Shown piece after piece: positions 22,301-28,300 of a stretch of 64,000 bases of DNA; position 1 is the stretch's first letter, and each line of letters begins with the position of its first letter. The position numbers were made by a program. Origin of the DNA: Carcharhinus amblyrhynchos (lineage: Eukaryota); assembly GCA_965287045.1 (NCBI GenBank), contig OZ336874.1, positions 62,744,001 through 62,808,000 on the forward strand, written 5' to 3'.

Positions 22301-25300
22301 TTGTTGCAACAGAGTTATTTGTACCTTTCTCTCTTGCATGATTGTCTTTACATCCTAGGGAATTTGGACAACTTGCTGTGGATATTTTAGACCATGCATT
22401 CAAACAGAACGAGAGAATGGCCATGAAGCTGCTGACATATGAGCTGAAGAATTGGAGTAACTCCACATGTCTGAAACTGGCTGTGTCATCCGGCCTTCGG
22501 TCTTTTGTTTGCCACACATGCACTCAGATGCTTTTAACTGATATCTGGATGGGGCGTCTGAACATGAGGAAGAACTCATGGTTTAAGGTAAAGGGAGATC
22601 TGTGGGGACAAAGAAAACTCTTCATCCTACATTGCTGTTTCAACCACAACCTGTTTCAGACACAGTCTTGTTGGGCCCCTATGTTCACCTTGTTAGAATC
22701 TGCTCATTCTAATGCAGCCTCAAATTACTCCCATTGCATTAGACAGATCTCCCATGTTGATTATTATCTTTTAAGTTACACTCACTATAAAATTCTGCTG
22801 TATTTTTCCTGTTGTAAGTATTAAGTTGTCAGACCTTTTTTCAGGATAATGCATCTAATCTTATTCTGGAAAAAATCATTAGTTATTTTCTAATCTTTTG
22901 CTTCAACTGTGTATTTAATGAACTGTGAAAAATGTCACCAACAGTTTCCTATACAGTATTCCTATTCTTATTTTCTTAAGTACCTTCAGATGTGTTCTAT
23001 ATGGTTCATTTGGTTTATAAATATTTAAGCATGACAGTTTTTAACGACCATTTTGTGATAAATCTTTAGTTCTTTGTGAACTCCAATTTCTCAATTATGG
23101 CTCCAACTAACAAAGGGTCCAGATTCCCAATCCCCATGCTGAAAACTGCAGTAAACAACTAGAATTCTGCCTTATTATTTCCCTGACGCTGTTGCTTTAT
23201 TATCGAGGTGCCTATTTCTGCCTTTAAACATTGCCTGTGGTGAATCACAGAATCGTGTCCCTGCAAGAATCAGCAGCTGAAGTGGGAGAAAGGTTAACAA
23301 ATAAGCGTGGAGTGTAGAATAAATTCCTCAGGTGGCCAGTGACCTGACTGAAAATAGTGTGAGACACCTCCTACTTTCTGGGACTTTCTAAAGGATGGAC
23401 AAGCAAACACTCTGCCATTTTGTATTGCTCAGACTACAAATCAGATTAATCAGAGGCAAAATCAAAAGAGAAGAAAATCAAATAAAGCAGATAGATGAAA
23501 TGATCTGCTTAATGTAGCAAATGTACCTCAAAATAATAGTGTAACTTGAAGTTTTTATAGATCTTGGAAGTAATGCTATTAGCATTCATGATCCAAAGTT
23601 TATATGTCAAATTATGTATTGACAGTCTGCTCTACTGGGTTGTTCATCTGCCGGGAAAGCTGAAACTCAGTTTTTAAAAAAAAACCTAAAACAGAATGAT
23701 AGTTAGTAGTCTTCATCGCTTTGAGATCTGAGCTAGAATAAAGCAGTACCAAAGAGATTGCTGTTAAAATTGTCAAGCAAAATATGATCAAAAGCACAAA
23801 AATTGTCTGATAGCTCTATCCGCTGTACACCTACACATAGATCAGCAGTTCTCATTAAATGGCTGGCTGCATTTGTTCACTCCTGATGGACTGGCCAACA
23901 GTCATAATAAGAAGTCTGACAACACCAGGTTTTAGTCCAACCGATTTATTTGATAGTAAACGCACAAGCTTTCGGGGTTAGTCCCTTCGTCCAGTGGATG
24001 GAGAGTTCTGGCCTCAGACAGAGCATATAAAGCACAGACAGTTTAGAGATTACTGATTAGAATGCGAATCCTTCCACCTAACCTGCTGTTCAAGACCTGA
24101 AGTGGCTGACAATGTGAGTGGAAGGAGCACTGATCACAGGTTAAAGAGATGTGTATTGTCTCCAGACAGTACAGTAAGTGAGGTTTTGCAAACCCAGGCA
24201 AGTCACGGGGGTTACAGATAGTGCGACATGAACCCAAGATCCCTGTTGAGACCGTCCTCATGTGTGCGGAACTTGGCTATCAGTTTCTGTTCAGCGACTC
24301 TGCGCTGTCGTGTGTCGTGAAGGCCGCCTTGGAGAATGCTTACCCGAAGGTCAGAGGCTGAATGCCCGTGACCACTGAAGTGTTCACCAACAGGAAGGGA
24401 ACAGTCTTGCCTGGTGATTGTCGAGCGATGTTCATTCATCCGTTGTCGTAGCGTCTGCATGGTCTCCCCAATGTACCATGCTTCGGGACATCCTTTCTTG
24501 CAACGTATCAGGTAGACAATGTTGGCCGAGTTGCAAGAGTATTTACCATGTACCTGGTGGATGGAATTCTCACGTGTGATGATGGTATCCATGTCTATGA
24601 TCCGGCATGTCTTGCAGAGGTTGCTGTGGCAGGGTTGTGTGGTATTGTGGTCACTGTTCTCCTGAAGGCTGGGTAGTTTGCTGCGAACAATGGTCTGTTT
24701 GAGGTTGTGTGGTTGTCTGAAGGCAAGAAATGGGGGTGTGGGGATAGCCCTGGCGAGATGTTCGTCTTCATCAATGATATGTTGAAGACTCCGGAGAAGA
24801 TGTCGTAGCTTCTCCGCTCTGGGCAAGTACTGGACGACGAAGGGTACTCTGTCCATTGTGTCCCGTGTTTGCCTTCTGAGGAGATCGGTGCGGTTTTTCG
24901 CTGTGGCGCATCGGAACTGCCGATCTATGAGTCAAGCACCATATCCTGTTCTTATGAGGGCATCTTTCAGGGTCTGGAGGTGTCTGTCACGATCCTCCTC
25001 ATCTGAGCAAATCCTGTGTATACGGAGGGCTTGTCCATAGGGAATGGCTTCTTTAACATGTTTAGGGTGGAAACTGGAGAAGTGGAGCATCGTGAGATTG
25101 TCTGTGGGCTTGCGGTACAGTGAGGTGCTGAGGTGACCGTCCTTAATGGAGATGCGTGTGTCCAAGAACGCAACTGATTCTGGGGAATAGTCCATGGTGA
25201 GTTTGATGGTGGGGTGGAATTTGTTGATATCATCATATAGTTGTTTCAGTGATTGTTCACCATGAGGCCAAAGGAAGAAAATGTCATCGATGTATCTAGT

Positions 25301-28300
25301 GTATAGCATTGGTTGAAGATTCTGTGCAGTGAAGAAGTCTTGTTCGAACCTGTGCATGAAGATGTTGGCATATTAAGGTGCAAATTTGGTCCCCATGGCT
25401 GTTCCATGTGTCTGGATGAAAAACTGGTTGTTGAAGGTGAAGACATTGTGGTCCAGGATAAAGCGGATGAGTTGTAAAATTGCATCTGGAAACTGGCAGT
25501 TGTCAGCATTGAGTACTGAGGCAGTCGCAGCAATGCCATTGTTGTGGGGGATGTTGGTGTAGAGCGCCGAGACATCCATTGTGACGAGGAGTGTCCCTGG
25601 TTCAACTGCTCCATGTGTGCTGAGTTTCAGTAGGAAGTCCGTAGTGTCGCGACAAAAGCTGGGGGTTCTTTGTACAATGGGTTTCAGGATGCCCTCGACG
25701 TAGCCGGAGAGGTTCTCACACAGAGTTCCATTGCCCGATACGATGGGACGTCCAGGTGTGTTTGCCTTGTGTATCTTTGGGAGGCAGTAGAGATCTCCAA
25801 TGCGGGGAGTACGTGGAATGAGAGCACGGAGGGTGCTCTGAAGGTCCGGATCAAAGGTCTTGATCAGATTGTTGAGTTGACGAGCGTGTTCTTTGGTCGG
25901 ATCTGTGGGTAATTGTCTGTAGTGTTCCTCATTGTTTAGTTGTCAGTACACTTCTTTACAGTAATCCGTTCTGTTCAGTATGATGATGGCCCCTCCTTTG
26001 TCTGCTGGTTTGATGACAATGTTGCGGTTTGTCTTGAGAGCATGGATGGCGTTGCATTGTGCTTGGGTGACGTTCGGGGCTGTCTTGTGAGTGCGGCTGA
26101 TGAATCTGGTGTTAACGCACCTCCTGATGGTTTGGGCATACAAGTCCAGTCGAGGGCAGCGGCCTTCCGGAGGAGTCCAATTGGATTCCTTCCTCTTAGG
26201 CTGTTGCACTGCAGATCTCTCTGTCAGCTGTTCTGGTTCATCGACTGTCTCATTGTGCTCGCTGCTGGCCTCTTGGGGTTTGTGGAAAAACTCCCGCAGC
26301 CTCATTCGCCTGATGAATTCCTCTGTGCCTGCTGCGAGACTGATGCGAGACTGCCTCCCAAAGATACACAAGGCAAACACACCTGGCCGTCCCATCGTAT
26401 CGGGCAATGGAACTCTGTGTGAGAACCTCTCCGGCTACGTCGAGGGCATCCTGAAACCCATTGTACAAAGAACCCCCAGCTTTTGTCGCGACACTACGGA
26501 CTTCCTACTGAAACTCAGCACACATGGAGCAGTTGAACCAGGGACACTCCTCGTCACAATGGATGTCTCGGCACTCTACACCAACATCCCCCACAACAAT
26601 GGCATTGCTGCGACTGCCTCAGTACTCAATGCTGACAACTGCCAGTTTCCAGATGCAATTTTACAACTCATCCGCTTTATCCTGGACCACAATGCCTTCA
26701 CCTTCAACAACCAGTTTTTCATCCAGACACACGGAACAGCCATGGGGACCAAATTTGCACCTCAATATGCCAACATCTTCATGCACAGGTTCGAACAAGA
26801 CTTCTTCACTGCACAGAATCTTCAACCAATGCTATACACTAGATACATCGATGACATTTTCTTCCTTTGGCCTCATGGTGAACAATCACTGAAACAACTA
26901 TATGATGATATCAACAAATTCCACCCCACCATCAAACTCACCATGGACTATTCCCCAGAATCAGTTGCGTTCTTGGACACACACATCTCCATTAAGGACG
27001 GTCACCTCAGCACCTCACTGTACCGCAAGCCCACAGACAATCTCACGATGCTCCACTTCTCCAGTTTCCACCCTAAACATGTTAAAGAAGCCATTCCCTA
27101 TGGACAAGCCCTCCGTATACACAGGATTTGCTCAGATGAGGAGGATCGTGACAGACACCTCCAGACCCTGAAAGATGCCCTCATAAGAACAGGATATGGT
27201 GCTTGACTCATAGATCGGCAGTTCCGATGCGCCACAGCGAAAAACCGCACCGATCTCCTCAGAAGGCAAACACGGGACACAATGGACAGAGTACCCTTCG
27301 TCGTCCAGTACTTGCCCAGAGCGGAGAAGCTACGACATCTTCTCCGGAGTCTTCAACATATCATTGATGAAGACGAACATCTCGCCAGGGCTATCCCCAC
27401 ACCCCCACTTCTTGCCTTCAGACAACCACACAACCTCAAACAGACCATTGTTCGCAGCAAACTACCCAGCCTTCAGGAGAACAGTGACCACAATACCACA
27501 CAACCCTGCCACAGCAACCTCTGCAAGACATGCCGGATCATAGACATGGATACCATCATCACACGTGAGAATTCCATCCACCAGGTACATGGTAAATACT
27601 CTTGCAACTCGGCCAACATTGTCTACCTGATACGTTGCAAGAAAGGATGTCCCGAAGCATGGTACATTGGGGAGACCATGCAGACGCTACGACAACGGAT
27701 GAATGAACATCGCTCGACAATCACCAGGCAAGACTGTTCCCTTCCTGTTGGTGAACACTTCAGTGGTCACGGGCATTCAGCCTCTGACCTTCGGGTGAGC
27801 ATTCTCCAAGGCGGCCTTCACGACACACGACAGCGCAGAGTCGCTGAACAGAGACTGATAGCCAAGTTCCGCACACATGAGGACGGTCTCAACAAGGATC
27901 TTGGGTTCATGTCGCACTATCTGTAACCCCCGTGACTTGCCTGGGTTTGCAAAACCTCACTTACTGTACTGTCTGGAGACAATACACATCTCTTTAACCT
28001 GTGATCAGTGCTCCTTCCACTCACATTGTCAGCCACTTCAGGTCTTGAGCAGCAGGTTAGGTGTAAGGATTCGCATTCTAATCAGTAATCTCTAAACTGT
28101 CTGTGCTTTACATGCTCTGTCTGAGGCCAGAACTCTCCATCCACTGGACGAAGGGACTAACCCCGAAAGCTTGTGCGTTTACTATCAAATAAATCGGTTG
28201 GACTAAAACCTGGTGTTGTCAGACTTTTTACTGTGTTTACGCCAGTCCAACGCCGGCATACCCACATCACAACAGTCATAATGGCAGATGTTGGAGGGAA

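What the first reader, a model, noticed from the sequence alone, without database searches (positions are those of the whole stretch)
23896..28282. 4.4-kb Penelope-like retroelement integrated as a near-perfect 1.88-kb palindrome inside a TRPM6 intron
Seen: two 5'-truncated PLE copies point away from each other. The arms (23909-25788 and 26350-28229) are both 1880 bp with no indels; I count ~14 substitutions by eye (~99% identity). The 561-bp spacer is simply the extra 5' part of the left copy. One 13-bp TSD brackets everything, and only the right arm has a 40-nt 3' tail (28230-28269). Known: EN+ PLEs form tandem or inverted pLTR structures and have a short 3' tail. Inference: this was one integration event in which both nicked target strands primed cDNA synthesis. 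Inverted segments that cover almost the whole RT-EN ORF are unusual. The TRPM6 pre-mRNA must contain a ~1.9-kb dsRNA stem here, a candidate source of endo-siRNAs against this family, an ADAR substrate, or a cruciform/fragile site.
Basis: partly seen in the sequence, partly recalled or inferred. Interest (0 to 1): 0.78.

Follow-up and report, generated by a model that had tools for sequence, protein, structure and literature searches.

The report
Head-to-head Penelope retroelement pair in shark TRPM6
Two truncated copies of a Penelope-like jumping gene sit back to back in an intron of a shark TRPM6 gene, a real structure that follows the insertion pattern already described for this class of element.

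Summary
The arms 23909-25788 and 26350-28229 are 1880 nt each, with no indels and 14 substitutions. A 13-bp direct repeat brackets the whole structure. A 40-nt tail is present on the right arm only. The ORF carries RVT_1 and GIY-YIG domains. The host gene is TRPM6 of a shark, on the + strand, and the element lies in the intron of about 22591-33266.

A head-to-head truncated pair with one TSD and one tail is described in the literature as a common or typical Penelope-like element (PLE) layout. An anole PLE protein cleaves and extends both target strands in vitro, and its two reverse-transcription start sites delimit the tail.

Within this window, 3 of 4 insertions of this PLE group are such pairs, each with a tail on one arm only. 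So the structure is not shown to be unusual. The shared arms cover about 59% of the ORF, not nearly all of it.

Each arm holds element sequence that the other lacks. This favours two RNA-templated cDNAs over fold-back copying.

The dsRNA, siRNA, ADAR and fragile-site consequences are only potential.

Verdict: a new member of a known kind, of modest interest.

The parts
23896..23908 (.). Left copy of the 13-bp target-site duplication
   Evidence: Identical to 28270-28282.
23909..26344 (-). Left PLE copy, 5'-truncated, sense on the minus strand, without a tail. It starts at about residue 180 of an ORF of about 881 residues. It has three in-frame stops: 25943-25945, 25373-25375 and 24932-24934.
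   Evidence: ORF list; tblastn of PLE proteins; start of homology at the codon 26342-26344.
23909..25788 (-). Left arm of the inverted repeat (1880 nt)
   Evidence: 14 mismatches to the right arm and no indels.
25789..26344 (-). Part of the spacer that is the extra 5' portion of the left copy (556 nt). It has no counterpart in the right copy.
   Evidence: Same reading frame as the arm. It aligns to residues of about 180-357 of full-length PLE proteins.
26345..26349 (.). 5-nt junction filler. It repeats 26334-26338, and together with the first 4 nt of the right copy it recreates the 9-mer found at 26334-26342.
   Evidence: Read. Homologs have D-P where these bases would encode S-R. Treating it as a templated insertion is an inference.
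26350..28229 (+). Right PLE copy, which is also the right arm (1880 nt). It is 5'-truncated at about residue 358 and has one in-frame TGA at 27204-27206.
26532..26924 (+). Reverse transcriptase core (Pfam RVT_1 match) in the right copy
   Evidence: PF00078, E 5.9e-10, residues 148-278 of the ORF 26091-27206.
27618..27722 (+). GIY-YIG endonuclease core in the right copy. A CX4CX2C linker motif lies upstream of it, and two Cys lie between the GIY-like and YIG motifs.
   Evidence: PF01541, E 9e-5, 23.1 bits against a cut-off of 22.6. The motifs were read in the translation.
27204..27206 (+). In-frame TGA shared by both arms (left arm 24932-24934). 4 of 6 homologs have Arg at this position.
28230..28269 (+). 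40-nt tail, present on the right arm only
   Evidence: Absent from the left arm. A 39-nt copy at 97% identity lies at 14345-14383.
28270..28282 (.). Right copy of the target-site duplication
22342..22590 (+). TRPM6 exon upstream of the host intron (tblastn extent, residues 716-798 of the Mustelus asterias protein)
   Evidence: Pfam TRPM2-like domain at 4.9e-10.
33267..33428 (+). TRPM6 exon downstream of the host intron (residues 797-850)
14335..14513 (.). Second insertion of the same family: a very short head-to-head pair. Its parts are the tail at 14345-14383, a minus-strand arm to about 14449, a plus-strand arm at about 14430-14503, and a 10-bp TSD. The arms meet at a palindromic hexamer.
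33892..34109 (.). Third insertion, from a related family: a short head-to-head pair with a 38-nt tail on the left arm only (33905-33942). Its 13-bp TSD has 1 mismatch.
53856..53986 (-). Fourth insertion: a solo 5'-truncated copy of about 100 nt, with no tail and a 14-bp TSD

Best explanation
This is one integration event of a defective EN+ Penelope-like retroelement in an intron of a shark TRPM6 gene. By its endonuclease motifs the element is of the Neptune/Nematis type.

Inferred steps of the event:
1. The element's GIY-YIG endonuclease nicked both target strands 13 bp apart.
2. Each 3'-OH primed its own cDNA on element RNA.
3. The minus-strand nick started at the distal reverse-transcription start site, which gave the right copy with its 40-nt tail.
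4. The plus-strand nick started at the proximal site 40 nt upstream, which gave the left copy without a tail.
5. Both cDNAs stopped short of the 5' end, at different points (about residues 358 and 180 of the ORF).
6. Their 3' ends were joined by a short-homology repair step that left 5 templated bases.
7. Filling in produced the 13-bp TSD.

What is shown and what is inferred. The anatomy and the domain content are shown. The family-wide recurrence of the layout is shown for 4 insertions. The decay after insertion is shown: 14 differences, mostly transitions, with private derived changes in both arms. The order of the enzymatic steps and the use of two RNA molecules are inferred. They rest on the published in vitro behaviour of an anole PLE.

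The pair has no demonstrated function. If TRPM6 is transcribed, the intron RNA can fold into a hairpin of about 1.9 kb.
For: Anatomy:
- The arms, TSD, tail and spacer are confirmed.
- RVT_1 and GIY-YIG are present.
- 2473 relatives have E <= 1e-5. The closest are shark proteins at 84-90% identity.

Neither arm can be a copy of the other. Each arm contains element-derived sequence that the other lacks:
- The tail on the right arm is also found in another insertion.
- The 556 nt of ORF on the left arm align to residues of about 180-357 of full-length PLE proteins.

Single source and single event:
- One TSD flanks the whole structure.
- Both arms share an in-frame TGA where 4 of 6 homologs have Arg. 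This points to one defective source.

Recurrence in the window:
- There are 7 family 3' ends, forming 3 head-to-head pairs plus 1 solo copy.
- In 3 of 3 pairs the tail is on one arm only, and the two end points are the same in all copies.

Literature:
- The anole PLE protein cleaves and extends both strands. It starts reverse transcription at two adjacent sites, and the stretch between them is the tail. It is predicted to dimerise (PMC11167929, main text).
- An inverted 5'-truncated copy, a TSD and a tail at one end are described as typical (PMC8557442 and PMC3846280, passages).

Junction: a 9-mer at 26334-26342 recurs at 26345-26353 across the arm junction. This fits a transient pairing of the two cDNA ends.

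Decay after insertion: of the 14 differences, 12 are transitions. Ten lie in the ORF, 4 synonymous and 6 not. Derived states occur in both arms.
Against: - No reads, no empty site and no other individual or species could be examined. The single-event reading therefore rests on the TSD and on the recurrence within one window (n = 4 insertions).
- The shared stop codon could also come from arm-to-arm gene conversion after insertion. In that case the divergence between the arms would underestimate the age.
- The in vitro data come from a Poseidon-clade element of a lizard, not from this lineage. That paper reports an AT-rich (ATT) cleavage preference and no homology between primer and template. 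Here the nicks lie next to a G/C-rich pentamer, and the tail-less junctions show a few matching bases.
- Arkhipova et al. 2013 interpret palindromic inverted junctions as self-priming. The short pair at 14335-14513, whose arms meet at a palindromic hexamer, is compatible with that reading.
- No Rfam hammerhead was found.
Confidence: 0.7

Rival explanations
1. Snap-back (self-priming). A single cDNA folded back on itself and was copied, so that one arm is a DNA copy of the other.
For: Arkhipova et al. 2013 favour self-priming for PLE inverted repeats with palindromic junctions (PMC3846280, passage). The short pair at 14335-14513 meets at a palindromic hexamer.
Against: In the main pair each arm has element sequence that the other lacks: a 40-nt tail on the right and 556 nt of ORF on the left. 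A fold-back copy of the left cDNA would run into the reverse complement of the TSD and flank, not into the family tail. A fold-back copy of the right cDNA could not supply the extra 556 nt. I also see no complementarity between the end of the left copy and the point where the right arm begins (read).
Confidence: 0.06
2. Two independent insertions. A second copy of the same family landed in inverted orientation exactly at the 5' end of an earlier copy.
For: PLEs are reported to target their own sequences, and the endonuclease of the D. virilis element is said to need the tail for recognition (as summarised in PMC11167929).
Against: There is only one TSD, it flanks the composite, and there is no internal TSD. 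Both arms share the same private TGA and differ at only 0.74% of sites. The same layout recurs in 3 of 4 insertions in the window.
Confidence: 0.04
3. Not biological as assembled. It is either a fold-back assembly or sequencing chimera, or a later inverted duplication of a single copy at the DNA level.
For: PLE tandem and inverted structures are known to cause assembly problems (PMC8557442, passage). No reads were available to me.
Against: The arms differ at 14 sites, the structure is asymmetric (561-nt spacer, tail on one side), and a perfect 13-bp TSD brackets it. A chimera or a replication fold-back would not end exactly at the family's two characteristic 3' end points, which other insertions share.
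Confidence: 0.04
4. The pair was selected, or now acts, as a hairpin-RNA locus: a source of endo-siRNA against the family, or an ADAR or innate-immune dsRNA substrate, within the TRPM6 pre-mRNA.
For: Both arms lie in one intron of a + strand gene. As RNA, 1870 of 1880 arm positions can pair, the longest uninterrupted run is 486 bp, and the evaluated energy is -3943 kcal/mol.
Against: The arms decay as neutral sequence, with 6 non-synonymous to 4 synonymous differences and new stop codons. The layout is the ordinary by-product of PLE integration. No small-RNA, editing or expression data were available. From general knowledge, intronic hairpins are usually removed with the intron in the nucleus.
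Confidence: 0.1

Closest known systems
Canonical EN+ Penelope-like element insertions (Penelope/Poseidon, Neptune, Nematis), as described by Evgen'ev and Arkhipova and summarised in Craig et al. 2021 and Arkhipova et al. 2013
   Same: A single ORF with RT followed by a C-terminal GIY-YIG endonuclease. Frequent 5' truncation. An inverted 5'-truncated copy placed head to head. A variable TSD (10-14 bp here). A 30-40-bp tail at one end only.
   Different: This insertion has no direct partial tandem (pLTR) and no full-length copy. It consists of only two truncated copies, so the inverted arms are 1.88 kb long rather than a pLTR of a few hundred bp. No canonical hammerhead was detected by Rfam.
PAc, the Poseidon element of Anolis carolinensis studied in vitro (Frangieh et al. 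2024)
   Same: Both target strands are cleaved and extended. There are two adjacent reverse-transcription start sites, and the interval between them is the tail. This matches the two 3' end points 39-40 nt apart seen in all 7 termini here.
   Different: PAc prefers ATT in AT-rich DNA and shows no primer-template homology. Here 3 of 8 inferred nicks lie 0-1 nt 5' of the pentamer GCCAG. By its CX4CX2C linker, the endonuclease here is of the Neptune/Nematis type rather than the Penelope/Poseidon type (motif read).
L1 twin priming (inversion with 5' truncation). The name and model are recalled from general knowledge. The library search for 'Penelope' with 'twin priming' gave only 3 incidental papers.
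   Same: [quoted passage not shown] The two cDNAs are joined at short homology. One TSD flanks the product.
   Different: In L1 the two segments come from different parts of one RNA, so they do not duplicate each other. Here both arms cover the same 3' 1880 nt, which implies two templates or two passes over the 3' end.

Membership tests
EN+ Penelope-like elements | Reverse transcriptase domain in the single ORF | tested here: met
   PF00078 at E 5.9e-10 in the right copy. 2473 relatives have E <= 1e-5, and the listed ones carry PF00078. No PLE-versus-LINE phylogeny was made.
EN+ Penelope-like elements | C-terminal GIY-YIG endonuclease fused to the RT | tested here: met
   PF01541 at E 9e-5, 23.1 bits against a cut-off of 22.6, downstream of the RT in the same frame. 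Only one TGA interrupts the frame.
EN+ Penelope-like elements | [quoted passage not shown] | tested here: met
   Two Cys separated by three residues lie between the GIY-like tripeptide and YIG, and His residues follow. This was read by eye in the translation. No profile test was run.
EN+ Penelope-like elements | Insertion anatomy: 5' truncation, adjacent inverted copy, TSD, and a 30-40-bp tail at one end | tested here: met
   The same anatomy is seen in 3 of 4 insertions in the window.
EN+ Penelope-like elements | Direct partial tandem forming pseudo-LTRs | tested here: not met
   There are no direct repeats beyond the TSD and two 14-nt chance pairs in 23000-29200. This is a property of many insertions, not of every insertion.
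EN+ Penelope-like elements | Hammerhead ribozyme motif in the repeat region | tested here: inconclusive
   Rfam gave no hit at the gathering score in the window, and none at E <= 10 in 23700-28500. By eye, the 3' UTR alignment shows the layout of a minimal PLE hammerhead as described in PMC4209133 (passages): a 5' box, a short helix, a GAAA-type box, and a palindromic AGCU. Each copy has a different core defect, and the main element has a 1-nt insertion in the 5' box. The core consensus itself is recalled.
Neptune/Nematis-type PLE (as against Penelope/Poseidon) | CX2-5CxxC Zn-finger-like linker upstream of GIY-YIG (Craig 2021 passages) | tested here: met
   A CX4CX2C motif lies about 40 residues upstream of the GIY-like motif (translation). 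The clade assignment was not tested by phylogeny, because no named reference sequences were on hand.
L1-type twin-priming inversion | The two inverted segments derive from non-overlapping parts of one template | tested here: not met
   The arms duplicate the same 1880 nt.
Hairpin-RNA / endo-siRNA locus | Small RNAs or editing that map to the arms | not testable with these tools
   No RNA data were available. Only the pairing capacity was computed.

The most novel reading that the evidence does not exclude
In this shark PLE lineage the head-to-head pair may be the default product of integration, not an accident. The proposed sequence is as follows. A dimeric ribonucleoprotein nicks both strands of a roughly symmetric target just 5' of a GCCAG-like pentamer. 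Each nick then primes a cDNA. The two cDNAs always start from different sites, the distal and the proximal reverse-transcription start sites, which is why exactly one arm carries the tail. Because the tail itself contains the same pentamer, resident copies would be self-targets, which would explain the tandem arrays. If this holds, these genomic copies would be in vivo footprints of the two-strand cleavage and extension so far seen only in vitro. They would also give a mechanistic reason for the one-sided tail.
Probability: 0.3. Interest if true: 0.5.

Novelty: new member of a known kind. Interest (0 to 1): 0.3.

Why it matters
For the host, the pair is an ordinary intronic transposon insertion. 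It does give the TRPM6 pre-mRNA the capacity to form a very long hairpin, and that could be checked in RNA data.

For transposon biology, young pairs like this one are useful natural records of an integration pathway that is still poorly understood. This pair is clean: it has an intact TSD, arms that differ at 0.74% of sites, a one-sided tail, and a junction with templated filler.

Together with the three other insertions in the window, it agrees with the two-strand cleavage and extension and the two start sites reported for an anole element in vitro. It also hints at a nick-site pentamer that a genome-wide survey could confirm or dismiss.

It does not reveal a new kind of element or a new architecture.

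Tried and rejected
- Rfam on the whole window at gathering score, and on 23700-28500 at E <= 10. No hammerhead or other credible family was found. The two hits (E 3.7 and 6.6) are noise.
- Folding of the last 140 nt plus tail. The z-score is 0.14, so there is no support for a stable terminal structure. I therefore dropped the idea that a stem between the tail and the upstream sequence is meaningful.
- The idea that the target site as a whole resembles the tail. Local alignment of each tail to its reconstructed empty site, against 5000 random window segments, gave random segments scoring at least as well in 350 (main), 2590 (short pair), 3408 (third pair) and 2458 (solo) of 5000 cases. This is not significant. 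Only the narrower pentamer-at-the-nick signal survived. Its offsets were chosen after seeing the data.
- Pinning the 5' end of the left copy with close shark proteins. The 80-82% identical hits cover only 51% of the N-terminal query. The boundary therefore rests on three more distant full-length proteins.
- Pyatkov et al. 2004 (PMC522041) is not held. Its content is cited only as summarised by others.
- A literature search for sharks with Neptune and Penelope found 0 papers. The search for 'Penelope' with 'twin priming' found 3 incidental papers.

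
Full report
**Observation**

The inverted repeat is real. The repeat finder reports arms of 1886 nt at 99% with 561 nt between them, and a 13-bp direct repeat at 23896-23908 and 28270-28282. An ungapped comparison of 23909-25788 with the reverse complement of 26350-28229 gives:
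- 1880 nt in each arm;
- 14 mismatches, 12 transitions and 2 transversions;
- 99.26% identity and no indels.

The window has no N. The 40 nt at 28230-28269 have no counterpart beyond the left arm.

**What the element is**

- Stop-to-stop ORFs on the plus strand of the right copy and the minus strand of the left copy are co-linear and in one frame.
- Pfam finds RVT_1 (E 5.9e-10) followed by GIY-YIG (E 9e-5, just above the curated cut-off).
- I read the right copy through its single TGA with X. That search found 2473 proteins with E <= 1e-5. The closest are uncharacterised shark proteins (Heptranchias, Mustelus, Scyliorhinus) at 84-90% identity. Turtle proteins follow at about 45%.
- Full-length relatives have about 881 residues. 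The right copy aligns from residue 358 and the left copy from about 173-183.
- The translation shows two Cys between the GIY-like and YIG motifs, and a CX4CX2C motif upstream. According to the Craig et al. 2021 passages I read, the first marks PLE endonucleases in general. The second marks the Neptune and Nematis clades and is absent from Penelope/Poseidon. I made no phylogeny.

**Host and organism**

- The ORF 60079-61302 carries the TRPM tetramerisation domain (1.8e-21), and the ORF 22342-22821 carries the end of a TRPM2-like domain.
- I searched that one large exon ORF on its own. All listed named hits are TRPM6. The best is Mustelus asterias at 90%, followed by Carcharodon at 80%.
- A local tblastn of the Mustelus protein against the window finds 16 exon-sized matches, all on the + strand.
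- The matches at 22342-22590 and 33267-33428 bracket an intron of about 10.7 kb. That intron holds the PLE pair and an unrelated LINE-type RT ORF at 30494-31858.
That step was left out.
- The window is shark sequence, not human.

**Is the layout unusual?**

The literature says it is not.
- Craig et al. 2021 (passages read) state that PLE insertions are highly 5'-truncated. [quoted passage not shown] They also state that a 30-40-bp tail is often present at only one end.
- Arkhipova et al. 2013 (passages read) call the arrangement with an inverted repeat, a TSD and a tail on one inverted repeat the typical Penelope structure. They also say head-to-head is the most frequent arrangement.

The window itself agrees.
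- A 20-nt probe from the 3' end matches 7 times, against 0.01 expected.
- An nhmmer profile of the terminal 79 columns finds the same 7 termini and nothing else below E = 0.39.
- The 7 termini form 3 head-to-head pairs (14335-14513, the main pair, 33892-34109) and 1 solo copy (53856-53986).
- Each of the four insertions has its own TSD of 10-14 bp.
- In 3 of 3 pairs the tail is on one arm only.
- All seven copies end at one of the same two points, 39-40 nt apart.

The main pair differs from the two short pairs only in where reverse transcription stopped. I could not measure the genome-wide distribution of arm lengths. 'Unusual' is therefore untested rather than disproved, but nothing supports it.

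**Mechanism**

Three facts argue for one event with two RNA-templated cDNAs.
1. One TSD flanks the composite, and there is no internal TSD.
2. Each arm has element sequence that the other lacks. The tail on the right arm recurs at 97% identity in another insertion. The 556 nt of ORF on the left arm align to PLE proteins. So neither arm can be a fold-back copy of the other.
3. Frangieh et al. 2024 (main text read) show three things for a purified anole PLE protein. It cleaves and extends both target strands. Reverse transcription starts at two adjacent internal sites. The genomic tail is the stretch between those sites. They also predict a dimer.

The geometry here fits this model.
- The minus-strand 3'-OH at the left edge of the TSD primed the right copy from the distal site, so that copy has the tail.
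- The plus-strand 3'-OH at the right edge primed the left copy from the proximal site, so that copy has no tail.

Both arms share a TGA where 4 of 6 homologs have Arg. The template was therefore already defective and was mobilised in trans. Alternatively, the arms exchanged sequence after insertion.

**Junction**

Homology of the left copy to full-length proteins begins at the codon 26342-26344. The two codons before it encode S-R where three homologs have D-P or D-G.

The 5 nt at 26345-26349 repeat 26334-26338. Together with the first 4 nt of the right copy they recreate a 9-mer found 11 nt to the left.

I read this as follows. The 3' end of the right-arm cDNA paired briefly with a 4-nt match in the left-arm cDNA. 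It copied 5 nt, and it was then joined to the end of the left-arm cDNA. This is inference. It is what a repair step between two simultaneously present cDNA ends would leave.

In the short pair at 14335-14513 the arms meet at a palindromic hexamer. A palindrome is the only kind of site at which two strands of the same sense can pair. That junction is also compatible with the self-priming idea of Arkhipova et al. 2013.

**Target site**

The eight inferred nicks are listed. The pentamer GCCAG lies 0-1 nt 3' of the nick in 3 of 8 cases, and GGCAG in a fourth.
- In 200,000 random draws of eight window positions, 3 or more hits of any one tail pentamer occurred with frequency 3e-5.
- Three or more hits of any pentamer at all occurred with frequency 9e-4.
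- The offsets were chosen after seeing the data.

The same pentamer occurs in the tail. A 9-nt tail segment that includes it recurs immediately outside the TSD of the main pair, and a 7-nt version recurs outside the TSD of the solo copy.

Against a broader claim, whole-tail alignment to the four empty sites is not significant. Random segments scored at least as well in 350, 2590, 3408 and 2458 of 5000 cases.

I report the pentamer as a lead only. It differs from the ATT preference reported for the anole element.

**Age and decay**

- Ten of the 14 differences lie in the ORF, 4 synonymous and 6 not. One of the non-synonymous changes is a private stop codon in the left arm.
- Polarised against six homologs, 3-4 derived states are in the right arm and 2 in the left.
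- The left copy has a further stop in its unique part.
- This is neutral decay of both arms after formation.
- The divergence is 0.74% between the arms, or 0.37% per arm. At an assumed rate of 0.5-1 x 10^-9 per site per year this gives a few million years. That rate is my assumption, not a result. The figure is a minimum if the arms have converted each other.

**Consequences**

Both arms are in one intron of a + strand gene. A TRPM6 pre-mRNA would therefore carry both.
- With the arms paired and the spacer left open, 1870 of 1880 positions pair.
- The longest uninterrupted run is 486 bp.
- The evaluated energy is -3943 kcal/mol.

Whether the hairpin forms in vivo, is edited, or is diced could not be tested. 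From general knowledge, a 561-bp spacer makes cruciform extrusion in DNA unlikely, although a replication hairpin is not excluded.

**What stayed unchecked**

- I had no eukaryotic genome, read or RNA collection.
- The bacterial genome collection was not used, because it is irrelevant to the question.
- Supplementary files of the papers were closed. Figures S1-S2 of Frangieh et al. 2024 and the supplementary material of Craig et al. 2021 may bear on tail and start-site details.

**Verdict**

The structure is real and was accurately described. It is an ordinary, although long-armed and well-preserved, example of the known PLE head-to-head insertion in a shark TRPM6 intron.

Noticed in passing
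window 28140-28180 (right arm), 23958-23998 (left arm), 53905-53945, 34010-34050: About 50-90 nt upstream of the 3' end, the family copies share a layout like the minimal PLE hammerhead: a 5' box, a short helix, a GAAA-type box, and an invariant palindromic AAGCTT. Each copy has a different defect in a core box, and the main element has a 1-nt insertion in the 5' box that both arms share. Rfam does not detect it.
   Followed up: partly
window 14335-14513, 33892-34109, 53856-53986: Three further insertions of the same PLE group lie in other TRPM6 introns: two very short head-to-head pairs with one-sided tails, and one solo copy of about 100 nt. That makes four events in 64 kb of one gene.
   Followed up: yes
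nick contexts at 23895/23896, 28282/28283, 14334/14335, 53855/53856: The pentamer GCCAG (or GGCAG) lies immediately 3' of 4 of the 8 inferred endonuclease nicks, and it also occurs inside the tail. This may be a cleavage preference that would make resident tails self-targets.
   Followed up: partly
window 28186-28193 and the equivalent position in all seven termini: An invariant AATAAA hexamer lies about 40 nt upstream of the proximal 3' end point (invariant columns). In the right arm it is in the sense orientation of TRPM6, so it is a potential intronic polyadenylation signal.
   Followed up: no
window 30494-31858 (+): A 455-codon open frame with a strong RVT_1 match (7.5e-33) lies in the same intron. 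It is an unrelated LINE-type retrotransposon fragment in a region of marked G over C skew.
   Followed up: no
window 45477-46142 (-) and 8098-8592 (-): Two further retroelement remnants: an RNase H-like domain of LTR-retrotransposon type (6.4e-13) and another RVT_1 fragment (6e-8).
   Followed up: no
window 23911/28227: One of the 14 arm differences lies 3 nt from the proximal 3' end point. Other family copies carry either base at this position. It could therefore reflect two slightly different templates rather than a mutation after insertion.
   Followed up: no
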